DNA of 52,782 bases from Escherichia phage vB_EcoM_IntR. The stretch lies in sequence record OM313460. The stretch is one strand, 5' to 3'. A program made the position numbers and the translations under genes. Shown here one piece after another: positions 205-49,060 of this stretch. How positions within the stretch are numbered: position 1 is the stretch's first letter; each line of letters begins with the position of its first letter. A model generated the notes under the pieces. That model saw nothing but the letters and a program-made list of their open reading frames with translations. It had not been told where the DNA came from and made no database searches.

Positions 205-636
205 ATGGTTAATATAAGACAGAAAGGACAGAACTTTGAGCGTAAAATGGCTAAGAAGTTCAATAGCTCGTTCGGATTAACTGTTGAGCGCAATCTTCAA
301 CAGTCTATTAATGGCGTGGCAGACTTGTTGGGTGTGCCGTTTTTCAGCGTTGAACTGAAGAAGCACAAGACCAAGTCTATCGGAACATGGTGGAGACAGT
401 GTGCGGCATCGGCAAAGGCTCAGAACAAGATGCCAGTGCTTATATACGAACTACCAAGAAAACAGCCTACCGTGGTGATGAATAAGGCTGATGTGATTGA
501 CTGTTTTCCAAGTGGCACGACTTTTAACGAGGCATCGAANCGCCTCTTTGTGGGTNTAGTAGAATTAACATGGGAACAATTTTGCCGGGTCTACAACTAT
601 TACGTTGCGCCCGGCACTCAATATCACGTCAATTAA
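205..636 (+). CDS. PD-(D/E)XK-type nuclease-like protein (possible resolvase/endonuclease)
   Basis: ATG with GAGG Shine-Dalgarno upstream; motif GVAD...SVELKKHK resembles the D...ExK nuclease core; two N-containing codons (X) in the ORF. Confidence 0.45.
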   Translation: MVNIRQKGQNFERKMAKKFNSSFGLTVERNLQQSINGVADLLGVPFFSVELKKHKTKSIGTWWRQCAASAKAQNKMPVLIYELPRKQPTVVMNKADVIDCFPSGTTFNEASXRLFVGXVELTWEQFCRVYNYYVAPGTQYHVN

Positions 637-818
637 TCTTGTTTCAGCTCGTCACAAATGACATGCTGATTTTTGGCAGGGATAATACCAAGATTNAGNA
701 NGGTGTATGGACTATCNGCGACACATTGTTCAACGGTAGTCCATTCAGGTTTGGATTCAACAATTTTGTAACTACAATCATGAGTAGCCACACATGTTGC
801 CAGGATTAAGCCAATCAT
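633..818 (-). CDS. hypothetical protein (contains ambiguous bases)
   Basis: 61-aa ORF, AAGGTGA RBS upstream of ATG; sequence has Ns at 696-717. Confidence 0.3.
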   Translation of the reverse strand: MIGLILATCVATHDCSYKIVESKPEWTTVEQCVXDSPYTXXNLGIIPAKNQHVICDELKQD

Positions 819-32352: not shown

Positions 32353-32394
32353 GCTACCAGCAAGCTTGTGCAGTTGCTGGTAGCGTTTCTTTTA
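32353..32394 (+). terminator. rho-independent terminator
   Basis: GCTACCAGCAA...TTGCTGGTAGC inverted repeat followed by GTTTCTTTT. Confidence 0.6.
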
Positions 32395-32448
32395 CGCTTG
32401 AGTCGTGCTATAATCCACTCTGGGTATACAATAAACCGGAGATATGGG

Positions 32449-32709
32449 ATGTTTGACTACAACGACAAGTCTTCCCTTATTGGCCAGTTTGTGGCTTGGG
32501 TAACAATAACAGTAAGTACTTTATCACTAAGTGATTGGGGTACTCTTATCGGTATACTCAGTTCCTTGGTGATGCTGATTGTTGTTACATATAACCAAAC
32601 ACGGCGAACCAAAATTATGTCGGATTATTACAATCGTAAGAAGCCGATAGAGGATGAAGTCGCGTCGAAAGAAGAGGTGTTACGTGAGTCTGAAATCAGC
32701 AGCGACTAA
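32449..32709 (+). CDS. holin (two transmembrane segments; possible pinholin)
   Basis: ATG at 32449 with GGAG RBS; hydrophobic stretches LIGQFVAWVTITVSTLSL and GTLIGILSSLVMLIVVTY; directly upstream of the endolysin. Confidence 0.55.
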   Translation: MFDYNDKSSLIGQFVAWVTITVSTLSLSDWGTLIGILSSLVMLIVVTYNQTRRTKIMSDYYNRKKPIEDEVASKEEVLRESEISSD

Positions 32710-33229
32710 AGGAGGTTGTAGCATGCTCGCTATCATCGGGCTTGTATTGTCGATGACAAGTACGCATGTACGTACTAATAAAGAAGGTCTTGAAATAATC
32801 GGTAATGCAGAAGGTTGTATGCGCAACCCGTATGTATGCCCTACTGGTTATTTAACAGTTGGCATTGGTAGCCGCATCTACAGCGATGAGCCCGCTGTAC
32901 GGCGCGAAGGCCTGACAGACCAGGAGATTGCTGACCGCTGGGTCAAGAATATACAAGAAGCAGAAAAGTGTGTTAACGACTGGTTCCACGGTAAAGATAT
33001 GAACACTAACCAGTTCAGCGCTATGACTTCAATGGTATTCAACCATGGTTGCACTAGACTCCGTAAGAACAAGGATGGTTCACCTACCAAAATATATACT
33101 GCTGCCCGTAAACAAAACTGGACTGAAATGTGTAACAGCATAACTGACTGGGATATGGGTGGTAAGTACAGGGGCTTGACAATACGTAAGCAAAAGGAAA
33201 AAGCGTTATGTCTAAAACCGGTGCAATAA
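32654..33229 (+). CDS. SAR endolysin, T4-lysozyme family (P1 Lyz-like)
   Basis: Catalytic block EGLEIIGNAEGCMRNPYVCPTGYLTVGIG and HGKDMNTNQFSAMTS; N-terminal weakly hydrophobic Gly/Ala/Ser-rich segment with Cys; alternative starts at GTG 32684 and ATG 32723. Confidence 0.75.
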   Translation: MKSRRKKRCYVSLKSAATKGGCSMLAIIGLVLSMTSTHVRTNKEGLEIIGNAEGCMRNPYVCPTGYLTVGIGSRIYSDEPAVRREGLTDQEIADRWVKNIQEAEKCVNDWFHGKDMNTNQFSAMTSMVFNHGCTRLRKNKDGSPTKIYTAARKQNWTEMCNSITDWDMGGKYRGLTIRKQKEKALCLKPVQ

Positions 33230-33537
33230 TTGCAGTTATTCTCGGCCTCGCCATTGTGTTCCTGGCTTTGTGGGTACGTGAGCTGAAAGGTGATATTATC
33301 GACCGTGACGGTATAATCAAACAGCTTAACAAGACTAATGGCGAGTTGTCCGCTACTAATCAAACGCTGATTAACTCTGTAAAGGATGAACGAGAGGCCT
33401 CAGCCAAACGCGCCAGTAAGATAACTGAACTTGAACAACAACTGCGTGATAAGAAGGGTAAATATGACGAAGCGACAAAATATGATTCGTGCGCTAATAC
33501 TGTTGCTCCTTCTGCCGTTCATGAACTCATGCGCTGA
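33208..33537 (+). CDS. i-spanin (Rz-like)
   Basis: N-terminal TM segment IIAVILGLAIVFLALWV then coiled coil; overlaps the endolysin end. Confidence 0.55.
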   Translation: MSKTGAIIAVILGLAIVFLALWVRELKGDIIDRDGIIKQLNKTNGELSATNQTLINSVKDEREASAKRASKITELEQQLRDKKGKYDEATKYDSCANTVAPSAVHELMR

Positions 33538-33739
33538 TAAGCCTGAAGTTGTTTATGTTGACAGGGTAGTCAAGGTTTATCCGCCTGGTGCGTACCTGGT
33601 TAAATGCCATAAACCTGAATTAACAGGTAATACCTGGAAGGCAATAGGTCAGTTAGCTATTGAACGTGGAACAGCTCTTGATGATTGTGCAGACAAGATG
33701 GACAGCATAATTAACTGGAGTAACAAAGGGGCCGAGTGA
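33464..33739 (+). CDS. o-spanin (Rz1-like lipoprotein), overlapping the i-spanin gene
   Basis: ATG at 33464 with AAGAAGGG RBS; signal peptide LILLLLLPFMNSC; out of frame with the i-spanin 3' end. Confidence 0.5.
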   Translation: MTKRQNMIRALILLLLLPFMNSCADKPEVVYVDRVVKVYPPGAYLVKCHKPELTGNTWKAIGQLAIERGTALDDCADKMDSIINWSNKGAE

Positions 33740-33753
33740 TGGCCCCTTTATTT
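33728..33753. terminator. bidirectional rho-independent terminator between convergent blocks
   Basis: GGGGCC-GAGTGAT-GGCCCC hairpin flanked by A-run upstream and TTTATTT downstream. Confidence 0.65.
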
Positions 33754-33755
33754 GA

Positions 33756-34034
33756 TTAAGCCTGCAGGAAGCCTGGGAACATATCAGCGCGTAAAGCAGC
33801 GCCCTTCAGTAACCAGATTTGGTCTTTAGCCTGTGCAAGCGCATTGTCCTGAGCTACTTGTTTGCCGATGTCTGCATTGAACTCTGCAGGGTCAACACAA
33901 CCAGAAGTACCTACACCTAACTGGAAGCCATCCAGCGTTGCCACACATACAGTTACAGTTGTATTCGGTACCTGCCAGAAATGATACTCCAGTTTATCAA
34001 CAAGAGCATTAACTTCTTTAAAATCTACTTTCAT
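33756..34034 (-). CDS. hypothetical protein
   Basis: 92-aa ORF, AAGGAAAG RBS, start overlaps upstream stop. Confidence 0.5.
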   Translation of the reverse strand: MKVDFKEVNALVDKLEYHFWQVPNTTVTVCVATLDGFQLGVGTSGCVDPAEFNADIGKQVAQDNALAQAKDQIWLLKGAALRADMFPGFLQA

Positions 34035-34258
34035 TATCGCTTTCCTTTCTTCTCGTTATACTGCGCGCAGGATGCACACAATACTGTACCGGGTAAGAGC
34101 TGACGTCGTTTTTCTTCAATGTCTTCCCCACACTGGTAGCACGTCAGCGGGCTTACTCCTGTGTATCTTACTCGGTTCGATAGCGCTGCGTCCCGGGCAA
34201 CTTGTTCAGCTTCAGAAGCCATATCATTAATGTCCGATGTGCGCGTAGTCTCAATCAT
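34034..34258 (-). CDS. DksA/TraR-type C4 zinc-finger protein
   Basis: CYQCGEDI...CASCAQ (CxxC-N17-CxxC), 74 aa; GAGGGA RBS. Confidence 0.55.
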   Translation of the reverse strand: MIETTRTSDINDMASEAEQVARDAALSNRVRYTGVSPLTCYQCGEDIEEKRRQLLPGTVLCASCAQYNEKKGKR

Positions 34259-34533
34259 TATTTTCCCTCTTCTTCACAATACAGGGTTTCTAATTCGTCG
34301 CATAGCTGTTGCGTCCAGCAATCATCCTCACCACGTATCTGGAAGCACAGCACAGGAATATCCTGTCGTAAAATATCGCTCTTGTAAATCTTTTTGGCAA
34401 CAGCTTCTGGTTCTTCCTGGAATATCTTCATAAACCAGTCCAGGCCTGACGTGCAGCCTGAGGCGTCTAGTATCTCCTTCGCCCTTAACTTAAGCGTTTC
34501 ATCTACTTCATACTCTAAACCTATCTTAGACAT
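34258..34533 (-). CDS. hypothetical acidic protein
   Basis: 91-aa ORF translationally coupled to the downstream gene. Confidence 0.45.
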   Translation of the reverse strand: MSKIGLEYEVDETLKLRAKEILDASGCTSGLDWFMKIFQEEPEAVAKKIYKSDILRQDIPVLCFQIRGEDDCWTQQLCDELETLYCEEEGK

Positions 34534-48339: not shown

Positions 48340-48789
48340 TTACTCGGCTTCTTCCGTAGCTGCCGGGGTGAATGTTACAGTCGGAATACCAGGCGAGGTC
48401 TTCACAACAGGGTCGACGATAGCCAGTTGTTCTGGTGTCAGGTTACGGTATGCAGTAACTGACATTTCATACTTGGTTTTAAACAGCTTGGCAACAACAG
48501 TCTTCGGTAACTTCTTCATTACGTCAGGCACAAGCTTCTGGTCTAGCGAGCGGTTAACCTTCTGCTCAACCTTGAGTTTACCAGGTACGCCATGCATGCT
48601 GAACTCAACCGTTAGTGTACCTTCTTTACCACGATTGATAATCATGTCGCGTTCAAGACGTGCTTTAATGGTCCGGCGCAATGTCTCCTGGTTAGCTTTC
48701 GCCTGTGCCATCCAGCGGTTCAGATTCGCCAGCTTGTCGTACAGCTGTTCCGTGTCCATCGATTCCAGTTCTTGTGGGTTCAGTGCCAT
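48340..48789 (-). CDS. hypothetical protein
   Basis: ATG at 48787-48789 with GAGGAAA RBS (ORF-track start 48828 is upstream). Confidence 0.45.
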   Translation of the reverse strand: MALNPQELESMDTEQLYDKLANLNRWMAQAKANQETLRRTIKARLERDMIINRGKEGTLTVEFSMHGVPGKLKVEQKVNRSLDQKLVPDVMKKLPKTVVAKLFKTKYEMSVTAYRNLTPEQLAIVDPVVKTSPGIPTVTFTPAATEEAE

Positions 48790-49060
48790 CAGTTGTTTCC
48801 TCAGGTTGCATGTGCATAGTTGCACCAATTAGTAGACAATAGTTATTGAACATTGTACGTAGTGCCTGGCCCGCAACAATATCCGTTATGTCTATTATAC
48901 CACTTTTAGTGGTGACGCGTAAAGCTTTTTCTTTCTTTGTTTTTTCCACGAATGCAATGCTGATGATTTCTTCCGCATGTATTACGTGGATAGTACCTGC
49001 AAACTCACCAGTCTTAGCTGGTGCCTGGTACACTAACGACATAGACGGTTGGTTACTCAT
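48692..49060 (-). CDS. hypothetical protein (3' end overlaps the next gene by ~98 nt)
   Basis: 122-aa ORF, weak RBS; the long overlap makes the true stop uncertain. Confidence 0.3.
   Translation of the reverse strand: MSNQPSMSLVYQAPAKTGEFAGTIHVIHAEEIISIAFVEKTKKEKALRVTTKSGIIDITDIVAGQALRTMFNNYCLLIGATMHMQPEETTDGTEPTRTGIDGHGTAVRQAGESEPLDGTGES

What the first reader, a model, noticed from the sequence alone, without database searches (positions are those of the whole stretch)
32449..33739. Lysis cassette with a P1 Lyz-like SAR endolysin, alternative start codons and overlapping spanin genes
The endolysin has a weakly hydrophobic Gly/Ala/Ser-rich N-terminal segment containing a Cys (SAATKGGCSMLAIIGLVLSM) and two Cys in the catalytic block (EGCMRNPYVCPTG). 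By recollection of P1 Lyz, this is the layout of a disulfide-caged signal-anchor-release endolysin. Three in-frame starts exist: ATG 32654, GTG 32684 and ATG 32723 with the strongest RBS. Starting at 32723 would truncate the SAR domain and remove the caging Cys, so start choice could give anchored and soluble isoforms. The upstream 2-TMD holin fits a pinholin. The o-spanin (lipobox-like FMNSC) starts inside the i-spanin gene in another frame.
Basis: partly seen in the sequence, partly recalled or inferred. Interest (0 to 1): 0.45.

Follow-up and report, generated by a model that had tools for sequence, protein, structure and literature searches.

The report
Ordinary phage lysis cassette, P1-type endolysin
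This is the standard four-gene host-lysis module of a BP63-like (Rosemountvirus) phage, with a membrane-tethered, disulfide-locked lysozyme closely related to phage P1 Lyz; it is already recognised in related phages, and the only useful new point is that the enzyme most likely starts at GTG 32684, not where most public records start it.

Summary
Window 32449-33739 encodes a holin, a GH24 lysozyme, an i-spanin and an overlapping o-spanin, and every quoted peptide and start codon is present.

The lysozyme is a clear homologue of phage P1 Lyz (PDB 1XJT, E=3.7e-42). All seven P1 cysteines align, and it has an E-x8-C-x5-T triad and a Cys-containing, weakly hydrophobic N-terminal segment.

Comparison with 15 related phage genomes and 80 viral contigs identifies GTG 32684 as the conserved start:
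- It is GTG or ATG in every relative.
- Codons 32684-32722 evolve as coding sequence.
- The product (181 aa) is collinear with P1 Lyz (185 aa).
- ATG 32654 is not conserved; sister clades have a stop or ACG there.
- Codon 32723 is Val in 14 of 15 relatives and in all distant homologues. Its Shine-Dalgarno-like AGGAGG is simply Lys-Gly-Gly codons that drift at synonymous sites.

The two-isoform idea therefore has no comparative support. The pinholin call is plausible but unproven.

The window is indel-free against phage swi3. It carries ATG at all seven swi3 genes annotated with GTG or TTG starts, including 32723 and the "M" of FMNSC.

Related records and the phage S144 paper already describe this cassette. 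Low interest.

The parts
32353..32394 (+). Terminator-like hairpin (32353-32384) plus a T-rich tail, at the end of the tail-fibre-assembly genes and just upstream of the lysis cassette
   Evidence: RNA fold -21 kcal/mol, z = -4.2, 0 of 200 shuffles as stable. A different-sequence hairpin plus T-tract sits at the same place in the KM/SOI901 clade.
32406..32414 (+). Extended -10 promoter-like element TGcTATAAT, about 35 nt upstream of the holin start
   Evidence: TG[CT]TATAATCC (CGCTATAATCC in one, L012) is conserved in all 9 aligned relatives across clades while the flanks diverge. Only one exact copy occurs in the window. Function is inferred, and the consensus scan did not list it.
32449..32709 (+). 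Holin, 86 aa. It has two hydrophobic segments (res 10-28 and 30-48), a basic then acidic C-terminal tail, and no dual-start motif.
   Evidence: phrog_1350 holin E=2e-15. SD CGGAGA -6.6 kcal/mol. Kyte-Doolittle 1.49 and 1.96. The family alignment shows an invariant core, including G31, G35, S38 and S39. For the S144 homologue, TMHMM predicts N-in/C-in and Phobius predicts 2 TMDs.
32654..32683 (+). Non-conserved in-frame upstream extension (MKSRRKKRCY) opened by ATG 32654; most likely not translated as part of the endolysin
   Evidence: The SD abuts the ATG with spacing 0. S1/ZCSE2 have a stop two codons downstream, SE4-like has ACG, and the KM clade has a stop. Variable sites here fall on holin third positions and are non-synonymous or stop in this frame.
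32684..33229 (+). P1 Lyz-type (class I) SAR endolysin, 181 aa from GTG 32684, overlapping the holin 3' end by 26 nt. Key features: SD GAGGTG 32674-32679; SAR segment about res 5-27 (32696-32764); Cys12 32717-32719; Glu43 32810-32812; Cys45 32816-32818; Cys52 32837-32839; Thr58 32855-32857.
   Evidence: PDB 1XJT E=3.7e-42. 85 identities and all 7 Cys aligned with P1 Lyz. The start codon is conserved as GTG or ATG in all relatives. The distance from start to SAR Cys matches distant homologues. The codon-position pattern indicates coding sequence. S144, S1, KM, KE25 and SOI901 annotate this start.
32710..32725 (+). Internal SD-like AGGAGG (Lys-Gly-Gly codons, immediately after the holin stop) plus ATG 32723 (Met14). 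This is the start used in most public annotations and is probably only a by-product initiation site.
   Evidence: -12.3 kcal/mol, spacing 5. The codon is Val in 14 of 15 relatives and in all distant homologues (C-[SA]-[VI] motif). The SD drifts synonymously. The ATG fits the 7/7 pattern of annotated non-ATG starts becoming ATG in the window.
33208..33537 (+). i-spanin, 109 aa, with an N-terminal TMD (res 5-23) and a single C-terminal Cys95. It overlaps the endolysin 3' end by 22 nt.
   Evidence: phrog_214 Rz-like spanin E=1.8e-13. DUF2570 E=3.6e-5, below Pfam's cut-off. Kyte-Doolittle 2.85. Cys position.
33464..33739 (+). o-spanin, 91-aa precursor from ATG 33464 in the +1 frame of the i-spanin, with 74 nt of overlap and extending 202 nt beyond it (overlapped architecture). 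Signal MTKRQNMIRALILLLLLPFMNS, lipidated Cys23 (33530-33532), Ala at +2, and further Cys48 and Cys75.
   Evidence: Pfam LysC PF23793 E=2.9e-19. phrog_456 E=8.4e-22. SD -5.8 kcal/mol for 33464, against -1.6 for 33482 and +1.2 for 33521. Relatives conserve both upstream Met and carry FLNSC, LLNSC or FLTSC.
33725..33749 (+). Intrinsic terminator closing the cassette, overlapping the o-spanin stop. It separates the cassette from the convergent leftward genes.
   Evidence: 10-bp stem with 6 GC pairs, a 5-nt loop and a T-tract. The BP63 RefSeq record annotates a bidirectional terminator at the homologous place.

Best explanation
Window 32449-33739 is the late lysis cassette of a BP63-like Rosemountvirus: holin, SAR endolysin, i-spanin and o-spanin. 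It lies between an upstream hairpin plus promoter-like element and a downstream terminator.

Shown by sequence:
- The endolysin is a homologue of phage P1 Lyz.
- Its conserved translation start is GTG 32684, 26 nt inside the end of the holin gene and preceded by GAGGTG. This gives a 181-aa protein.
- The first ~27 residues (MSLKSAATKGGCSMLAIIGLVLSMTST) form a weakly hydrophobic segment rich in Gly, Ala, Ser and Thr and containing Cys12.
- The catalytic block is Glu43-x8-Cys52-x5-Thr58, with Cys45 two residues after the Glu.

Inferred by analogy with P1 Lyz:
- The protein is exported by the Sec system and held in the inner membrane by its N-terminal signal-anchor-release (SAR) segment.
- It is kept inactive because catalytic Cys52 is disulfide-bonded to Cys45.
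- When the holin depolarises the membrane, the SAR segment leaves the bilayer. Cys12 then attacks the Cys45-Cys52 bond, Cys52 is freed, and the muramidase becomes active.
- The spanin pair then fuses the inner and outer membranes. The i-spanin is anchored by its TMD, and the o-spanin is lipidated at Cys23.

On the other two starts:
- The holin has two hydrophobic segments and is most likely a pinholin-type trigger. This rests on context only.
- The AGGAGG-N7-ATG at 32710-32725 is a coding by-product (Lys-Gly-Gly-Cys-Ser-Met) that gene callers mistake for the start.
- Any product made from it would lack Cys12 and the charged N-terminus. It is not a conserved part of the system.
For: Homology to P1 Lyz:
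- Pfam PF00959 E=9.2e-20.
- 1XJT E=3.7e-42, aligned from the SAR region onward.
- Global alignment gives 85 identities. Cys 12/45/52/96/123/150/176 align with P1 13/44/51/91/118/150/178.
- tblastn to P1 lyz begins at ORF residue 11, which is the GTG codon.

Start at 32684:
- The codon is GTG in Rosemountvirus and Loughboroughvirus genomes. It is ATG in KM, KE25, SOI901 and a metagenomic relative, where the frame opens only 4 codons upstream.
- 35 distinct N-termini from 80 viral contigs were examined. All 34 that are complete begin M-x-x-[KR/S] and place the SAR Cys 31 residues before the catalytic Glu, exactly as in the 32684 product.
- Upstream of 32684, variable sites fall on holin third positions and give amino-acid changes or stops in the endolysin frame.
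- Within 32684-32709 only 2 sites vary.
- Within 32710-32722 all 5 variable sites are synonymous, including an AGC/TCC serine switch. The KM clade has an in-frame 9-nt insertion.
- The SD at 32684 (-7.1 kcal/mol) is as strong as or stronger than those of neighbouring genes (-3.4 to -6.6).
- The manually curated phage S144 annotation uses this start and notes the P1 SAR-endolysin match.

Spanins and transcription signals.

Literature: the triad and Cys caging in P1 Lyz are described in PMC3556154. The pinholin plus SAR-endolysin pairing is described in PMC9025707 and PMC6139136.
Against: - No experiment exists for this clade in the literature I could search. Export, membrane release and disulfide isomerisation are all inferred.
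- The SAR segment is less hydrophobic than that of P1 (19-residue Kyte-Doolittle mean 1.5 against 2.1) and contains Lys9.
- The SAR Cys sits 2 residues further from the catalytic Glu than in P1 (31 against 29).
- The strongest ribosome-binding site in the window is at 32723, not 32684, and it directly follows the holin stop. Some initiation there is likely.
- Most public records, including RefSeq BP63, start the gene there.
- The holin has no Pfam hit. The BP63 record reports only one TMD. Its similarity to the S21 pinholin is marginal.
Confidence: 0.82

Rival explanations
1. The public annotation is right. The endolysin starts at 32723 (168 aa), is a soluble cytoplasmic lysozyme, and needs a large-hole holin to reach the wall. 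The upstream in-frame codons are untranslated.
For: - This site has the strongest SD in the region (-12.3 kcal/mol, spacing 5), placed right after the holin stop. That is the classic coupled-gene layout.
- swi3, BP63 (GenBank and RefSeq), SPLA11, PA13076 and the Listeria-labelled record all annotate this start.
Against: - The 13 upstream codons are conserved as protein. All changes in 32710-32722 are synonymous, there is a Ser AGC/TCC switch, and the KM-clade indel is in frame.
- These codons align with the P1 Lyz SAR region, including its Cys, and with all distant homologues.
- The codon is GTA in S1/ZCSE2 and GTT in the KM clade, neither of which is a start codon.
- The SD is not conserved.
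- The window's ATG fits a systematic pattern tied to the annotation.
Confidence: 0.05
2. Translation starts at the first ATG of the ORF, 32654. This gives a 191-aa SAR endolysin with an extra, strongly basic N-terminus (MKSRRKKRCY) that reinforces N-in topology.
For: - It is the first ATG in the open frame in Rosemountvirus genomes.
- A basic N-terminus agrees with the positive-inside rule for signal anchors (general knowledge).
Against: - GAGG abuts the ATG with zero spacing.
- The frame is closed by TAG two codons later in S1/ZCSE2, the ATG is ACG in the SE4-like genome, and a stop lies upstream of the start in the KM clade.
- R4H and Y10C/F changes occur at holin-synonymous sites.
- P1 Lyz and the distant homologues have no such extension.
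Confidence: 0.05
3. Two functional isoforms are made. A membrane-tethered, Cys-caged form starts at 32684, and a SAR-less soluble form starts at 32723 by reinitiation after the holin stop. The two are used together to tune lysis.
For: - TAA-AGGAGG-N7-ATG (GTG in most natural Rosemountviruses) is a near-ideal initiation or reinitiation site.
- In-frame secondary translation products are documented for some endolysins of Gram-positive phages (PMC4777826, PMC9430671).
Against: - There is no conservation of either the SD or a start codon at this site outside the very closely related Rosemountvirus genomes. Loughboroughvirus, with a 91%-identical protein, has AGGTGG plus GTA.
- The truncated product would lack Cys12 and the basic N-terminus, and would keep only about 10 hydrophobic residues.
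- By analogy with P1 Lyz it would be either trapped in the cytoplasm behind a pinholin, or, if exported, locked inactive.
- I found no report of such isoforms for SAR endolysins.
Confidence: 0.08

Closest known systems
Phage P1 Lyz (SAR endolysin activated by disulfide isomerisation; PDB 1XJT and 1XJU)
   Same: - GH24 lysozyme of nearly the same length (181 aa against 185 aa).
- About 46% identity, E=3.7e-42.
- N-terminal weakly hydrophobic segment containing a Cys.
- E-x8-C-x5-T triad, with a caging Cys two residues after the Glu.
- All seven cysteines aligned.
   Different: - The SAR Cys lies 31 rather than 29 residues before the catalytic Glu.
- The SAR segment is less hydrophobic and carries an internal Lys.
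- The gene sits in a compact holin-endolysin-spanin cassette and overlaps the holin by 26 nt. In P1, lyz is followed by lydD/lydE and is unlinked to lydA/lydB.
- There are no experimental data for this protein.
Phage 21 lysis cassette S21-R21-Rz-Rz1 (pinholin plus SAR endolysin paradigm)
   Same: - Same gene order and logic: a small two-TMD holin, then a SAR endolysin, then a two-component spanin.
- The second holin TMD shows a weak match to S21 around W-x-x-IG-x-L-x-SLV...TY (35% over 54 aa, E=7e-4).
   Different: - R21 uses an E-D-T triad with no Cys caging, so the endolysin here belongs to the P1 class rather than the R21 class.
- The holin is not detectably in the S21 Pfam family, and the hhalign probability is only 6%.
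- There is no dual-start antiholin motif.
- The spanins are overlapped, not embedded.
Phage P2 LysB/LysC (overlapped two-component spanin)
   Same: - The o-spanin matches Pfam LysC PF23793 (E=2.9e-19).
- The o-spanin gene starts inside the i-spanin gene in the +1 frame and extends beyond it. This is the 'overlapped' architecture of Kongari et al. (PMC6139136).
   Different: - The NCBIfam P2_Rz1 equivalog is not reached (13 bits against a cut-off of 27).
- The lipobox is non-canonical at position -2 (L/M-N-S-C).
Erwinia phage ERA103 Lyz103 (SAR lysozyme with a different disulfide cage)
   Same: A SAR-domain GH24 endolysin regulated through a SAR-domain Cys. It is a detectable homologue (29% identity, E=5e-14).
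   Different: It is much more distant than P1 Lyz. To my recollection (Kuty et al. 2010, which I could not open), Lyz103 keeps the E-D-T triad and cages the catalytic Glu. The window protein has the catalytic Cys of P1 Lyz.
Loughboroughvirus S144 / S1 and Rosemountvirus records that already annotate this cassette
   Same: - The endolysin is 91% identical and the holin about 87% identical.
- The curated S144 annotation starts the endolysin at the same GTG, notes the P1 SAR-endolysin match, calls a two-TMD type II holin, and calls a +1-frame o-spanin.
- The GenBank records for phage S1 and for 'Listeria phage 220426122051' name the gene SAR-endolysin.
   Different: - The window (like PA13076) has Met instead of Val at residue 14.
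- The window has Met instead of Leu at lipobox position -3.

Membership tests
P1 Lyz-type (class I) SAR endolysin | GH24 / T4-lysozyme-family catalytic domain | tested here: met
   Pfam PF00959 E=9.2e-20, above the cut-off. phrog_7 endolysin E=1.2e-47. PDB 1XJT E=3.7e-42.
P1 Lyz-type (class I) SAR endolysin | Glu-8X-Cys-5X-Thr triad, with Cys replacing the usual Asp | tested here: met
   E43, C52 and T58 (numbering from GTG 32684) align with P1 E42, C51 and T57. The definition is taken from PMC3556154.
P1 Lyz-type (class I) SAR endolysin | Caging Cys near the catalytic Cys (P1 Cys44) | tested here: met
   C45 aligns with P1 C44, within the motif GNAEGC shared with P1 and with all 80 viral-contig homologues.
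P1 Lyz-type (class I) SAR endolysin | N-terminal weakly hydrophobic segment rich in Gly, Ala, Ser and Thr, preceded by basic residues (SAR domain) | tested here: met
   Residues 5-27 contain 13 of 23 G/A/S/T. The 19-residue Kyte-Doolittle mean is 1.5, against 2.1 for P1, and K4 and K9 lie upstream. This holds only if translation starts at 32684 or 32654, and the comparative data support 32684.
P1 Lyz-type (class I) SAR endolysin | Cys inside the SAR domain (P1 Cys13) available for disulfide isomerisation | tested here: met
   C12 is conserved in every relative and distant homologue as C-[SA]-[VI], always 31 residues before the catalytic Glu. The spacing in P1 is 29.
P1 Lyz-type (class I) SAR endolysin | Sec-dependent, holin-independent export; release on membrane depolarisation; activation by disulfide exchange | not testable with these tools
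   This needs expression, fractionation, energy-poison and Cys-mutant experiments. I found none for this clade.
Pinholin (phage 21 S21 type) | Small class II holin with two TMDs, N-in and C-in | tested here: inconclusive
   Two hydrophobic segments, residues 10-28 (KD 1.49) and 30-48 (KD 1.96), separated only by Ser-Asp. For the S144 homologue, TMHMM predicts N-in/C-in and Phobius predicts two TMDs. The BP63 RefSeq note reports one TMD.
Pinholin (phage 21 S21 type) | Sequence homology to S21 | tested here: inconclusive
   No Pfam hit at E<0.1 apart from noise. Pairwise blastp gives 35% over 54 aa, E=7e-4. hhalign gives probability 6%, E=0.006. The S21 sequence used was verified against phage 21 record OL657228.
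Pinholin (phage 21 S21 type) | Gene adjacent to a SAR endolysin gene | tested here: met
   The holin lies immediately upstream of the SAR endolysin and overlaps it by 26 nt. The association rule is stated in PMC9025707.
Pinholin (phage 21 S21 type) | Forms nm-scale holes that depolarise the membrane but do not pass a folded endolysin | not testable with these tools
   This requires complementation with a cytoplasmic endolysin such as lambda R, as was done for P1 LydD (PMC9025707).
Two-component spanin, overlapped architecture | i-spanin: type II inner-membrane protein with an N-terminal TMD and a helical periplasmic domain | tested here: met
   TMD at residues 5-23, KD 2.85. phrog_214 Rz-like spanin E=1.8e-13. 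Single periplasmic Cys95.
Two-component spanin, overlapped architecture | o-spanin: outer-membrane lipoprotein signal with a lipobox Cys | tested here: met
   Pfam LysC E=2.9e-19. The signal is MTKRQNMIRALILLLLLPFMNS followed by Cys23, with Ala at +2. The lipobox (M/L)-N-S-C departs from [LVI][ASTVI][GAS]C at position -2. Comparable deviations such as LNGC are listed by Kongari et al..
Two-component spanin, overlapped architecture | The o-spanin gene starts within the i-spanin gene, out of frame, and extends beyond its stop | tested here: met
   33464 lies in the +1 frame of 33208-33537, and the o-spanin stop is at 33739. The definition is in PMC6139136.
Two-polypeptide endolysin (in-frame secondary translation product) | An internal translation-initiation region conserved among homologues | tested here: not met
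   The SD varies at synonymous sites (AGGCGG, AGGTGG, GCTGGTGG). The codon is GTA or GTT in two sister clades and Val or Ile in all distant homologues.
Two-polypeptide endolysin (in-frame secondary translation product) | A second polypeptide detected and required for function | not testable with these tools
   This needs protein-level data.

The most novel reading that the evidence does not exclude
In Rosemountviruses the sequence TAA-AGGAGG-N7-(G/A)TG lies immediately after the holin stop. It could drive reinitiation that yields a SAR-less, Cys12-less cytoplasmic lysozyme alongside the membrane-tethered caged form. The phage would then have a second endolysin pool whose amount is coupled to holin translation. 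This would be the first in-frame two-product endolysin gene in a Gram-negative SAR system.
Probability: 0.07. Interest if true: 0.45.

Novelty: already known. Interest (0 to 1): 0.14.

Why it matters
It matters mainly for annotation. Most public Rosemountvirus records, including the RefSeq entry for BP63, start the endolysin 13 or 23 codons too late. This deletes the Cys-bearing membrane anchor. Several records also truncate or miss the o-spanin signal peptide or the holin.

Anyone cloning these 'lysozymes' as antibacterial enzymes, or predicting lysis type from annotation, would misread a P1 Lyz-type SAR endolysin as a soluble one. Biologically the cassette adds nothing beyond the known pinholin / SAR-endolysin / spanin paradigm.

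Tried and rejected
- **ATG 32654 as the start.** Rejected: it is not conserved, has zero SD spacing, and its codons evolve freely.
- **ATG 32723 as the sole start.** Rejected: the upstream codons are conserved as protein and align with P1 Lyz.
- **Natural occurrence of the 32723 ATG.** Among 40 Rosemountvirus records, only PA13076 matches the 79-nt stretch exactly. A metagenome pattern scan found nothing.
- **Holin homology to the S21 pinholin and to P1 LydD.** The S21 signal is marginal and there is none for LydD. Pfam and NCBIfam gave only noise for the holin.
- **Proteomic evidence for the N-terminus in the S144 paper supplement.** The supplement holds the curated CDS and coverage figures but no peptide list.
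- **Primary P1 Lyz and Lyz103 papers.** PMC404059 and PMC2953681 are not held. A residue-number search returned only irrelevant papers. Details of the Cys13/Cys44/Cys51 exchange therefore rest on my knowledge of Xu et al. 2005 plus PMC3556154.
- **Not run.** I did not run structure prediction or the large protein-database searches. The 46%-identity match to a solved structure made them unnecessary.
Full report
**What is in the window**

ORF listing and direct reading confirm four same-strand genes:
- A holin, ATG 32449 to TAA 32709 (86 aa).
- A lysozyme frame open from 32654 to 33229, with in-frame ATG 32654, GTG 32684 and ATG 32723.
- An i-spanin, 33208-33537.
- An o-spanin frame ending at 33739.

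Family searches assign all four genes:
- Pfam Phage_lysozyme E=9.2e-20, and LysC (Rz1-like) E=2.9e-19.
- PHROG holin 2e-15, endolysin 1.2e-47, and Rz-like spanins 1.8e-13 and 8.4e-22.

The window is a BP63-like Rosemountvirus. It is about 98% identical to Escherichia phage swi3 and 99% identical to phage PiR in this region.

**The endolysin is a P1 Lyz homologue**

- The best solved structure is P1 Lyz, 1XJT, at E=3.7e-42. The alignment begins in the N-terminal hydrophobic region.
- I took the P1 sequence from its genome record. A global alignment of the product starting at GTG 32684 (181 aa) with P1 Lyz (185 aa) gives 85 identities.
- The alignment pairs every cysteine. The window has Cys 12, 45, 52, 96, 123, 150 and 176. 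P1 has Cys 13, 44, 51, 91, 118, 150 and 178.
- The catalytic block is E43-x8-C52-x5-T58, with C45 two residues after the Glu. This is the Glu-8X-Cys-5X-Thr form in which, in P1 Lyz, the catalytic Cys is held in a disulfide until activation (PMC3556154).
- The identity of the partners (Cys13 displacing Cys51 from Cys44) is from my knowledge of Xu et al. 2005. The primary papers are not in the library.
- ERA103 Lyz103 is far more distant, at 29% identity.

**Which start codon**

This is the crux of the finding, and comparison settles it. I read the junction in 15 related genomes.

*GTG 32684:*
- It is GTG in all Rosemountvirus and Loughboroughvirus genomes.
- It is ATG in vB_SE1_KM, KE25, Erwinia phage SOI901 and a metagenomic relative. 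In those the frame opens only four codons upstream.
- The 26-nt overlap with the holin 3' end is kept everywhere.

*ATG 32654:*
- It is followed by TAG two codons later in S1 and ZCSE2.
- It is ACG in the SE4-like genome.
- It lies behind a stop in the KM clade.

*A site-by-site table shows the switch in constraint:*
- From 32600 to 32683, variable sites fall on holin third positions. In the endolysin frame they give amino-acid changes or stops.
- From 32684 to 32709, only 2 of 26 sites vary, as expected for dual coding.
- From 32710 to 32722, all five variable sites are synonymous in the endolysin frame, including an AGC/TCC serine switch.
- The KM clade carries an in-frame 9-nt insertion here.

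*Distant homologues:*
- 80 viral contigs at 38-46% identity give 35 distinct N-termini. The 34 that are complete all begin with Met followed by basic residues.
- They then have C-[SA]-[VI], with the Cys 31 residues before the catalytic Glu. This is exactly what the 32684 start yields.

*Other support:*
- The SD for 32684 (GAGGTG, -7.1 kcal/mol, spacing 4) is as good as or better than those of neighbouring genes.
- The curated annotation of Loughboroughvirus S144 uses this GTG and notes the P1 SAR-endolysin hit.
- The records for S1, KM, KE25 and SOI901 also use this start.

**The 32723 site**

- It has the strongest SD (-12.3 kcal/mol) and follows the holin stop directly. This is why swi3, BP63, SPLA11, PA13076 and others annotate it as the start.
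- PiR and ZCSE2 start even later, at the 32753 equivalent.
- The AGGAGG is the Lys-Gly-Gly codons of the SAR segment. It drifts to AGGCGG (SPLA11), AGGTGG (Loughboroughvirus) and GCTGGTGG (KM clade).
- The codon itself is Val in 14 of 15 relatives: GTG, or the non-start codons GTA and GTT. It is Val or Ile in all distant homologues.
- Only PA13076 shares the ATG.
- A product starting here would lack Cys12 and the basic N-terminus, and would keep about 10 hydrophobic residues.
- By analogy with P1 Lyz it would be trapped in the cytoplasm or, if exported, locked inactive.
- Some initiation there is likely on biophysical grounds. Nothing suggests it is a selected feature.
- In-frame secondary products are documented only for Gram-positive endolysins.

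**A data caveat**

- The window aligns with swi3 over all 52,782 bases with no indel and 2,148 substitutions.
- All seven swi3 genes annotated with GTG or TTG starts have ATG in the window. These include 32723 and 33521.
- 33521 encodes the residue at position -3 of the o-spanin lipobox. The relatives have FLNSC, LLNSC or FLTSC there, never FMNSC.
They are not independent evidence.

**Holin**

- The family alignment shows an invariant core spanning two hydrophobic segments, residues 10-28 and 30-48. The N- and C-termini are variable.
- Predictions reported by others disagree. They give two TMDs, N-in/C-in, for the S144 homologue and one TMD for BP63.
- Similarity to the phage 21 pinholin is weak. 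The S21 sequence was verified. Blastp gives E=7e-4 and hhalign gives probability 6%.
- There is no similarity to P1 LydD.
- 'Pinholin' is therefore a reasonable inference from its size, its two segments and its adjacency to a SAR endolysin (PMC9025707). It is not demonstrated.

**Spanins and transcription signals**

- The i-spanin has a strong N-terminal TMD and one C-terminal Cys.
- The best o-spanin start is ATG 33464 (SD -5.8 kcal/mol). It gives a lipoprotein signal ending at Cys23, with Ala at +2.
- The o-spanin gene lies in the +1 frame, starts 74 nt before the i-spanin stop, and extends beyond it. This is the 'overlapped' class of Kongari et al., who also document how often such starts are mis-annotated.
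- swi3 and BP63 start the o-spanin inside the lipobox.
- Upstream there is a stable hairpin with a T-tract, followed by a clade-wide conserved TGcTATAAT.
- An intrinsic terminator closes the cassette.

**Verdict**

- The isoform hypothesis is not supported.
- The cassette is an ordinary instance of the pinholin / SAR-endolysin / spanin paradigm and is already described for close relatives.
- The practical outcome is a start-codon correction for many public records.

Noticed in passing
whole window (1-52782); starts at 633-818(-), 5079, 26154, 32723, 33521, 39512, 48692-49060(-): The window is collinear with Escherichia phage vB_EcoM_swi3 (MT768059.1) with zero indels and 2,148 substitutions (95.9% identity). 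All 7 swi3 CDS annotated with GTG or TTG starts carry ATG in the window. This looks systematic rather than natural, and it affects which start codons a reader sees.
   Followed up: partly
window 32353-32414: A stable hairpin plus T-tract (-21 kcal/mol, z = -4.2) is followed by an extended -10-like TGcTATAAT. The motif is conserved across Rosemountvirus, Loughboroughvirus and the KM/SOI901 clade while the flanks diverge, and the KM/SOI901 clade has a different-sequence hairpin at the same place. This suggests the lysis cassette is its own transcription unit.
   Followed up: partly
L005 (PV660647 vB_SE1_KM) 681-926; L090 (PP856724 KE25) 1492-1737: In these records the true holin ORF (81 aa, ending ...ESQINSD) is not annotated. 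A 64-aa ORF in another frame is annotated instead as a hypothetical protein.
   Followed up: yes
L001/L002 (swi3, BP63) 2722-2940; L007 (PiR) 1843-1986; window 33464-33739: Public o-spanin annotations are truncated. swi3 and BP63 start at a TTG inside the lipobox, so the signal peptide is lost. PiR annotates only a 47-aa fragment. S1 and ZCSE2 annotate no o-spanin at all.
   Followed up: partly
L089 (PP583539.1): A genome 96-97% identical to these enterobacterial Rosemountviruses is deposited as 'Listeria phage 220426122051' with Listeria monocytogenes as host. The cassette (SAR endolysin, spanins for an outer membrane) fits a Gram-negative host, so the host label is doubtful.
   Followed up: no
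window 32449-32709, holin residues 31-39: The second hydrophobic segment carries an invariant small-residue ladder, G31-x3-G35-x3-S39. G35 and S39 align with the G-x3-S of the S21 pinholin zipper motif (the motif is from my recollection of Pang et al. 2009). This hints at pinhole-type helix packing.
   Followed up: partly
window 33756-34533 (- strand): Convergent leftward genes abut the cassette terminator. They include a DksA-like C4 zinc-finger protein (34034-34258) directly downstream of the DNA polymerase gene. Names are taken from relatives' annotations only.
   Followed up: no
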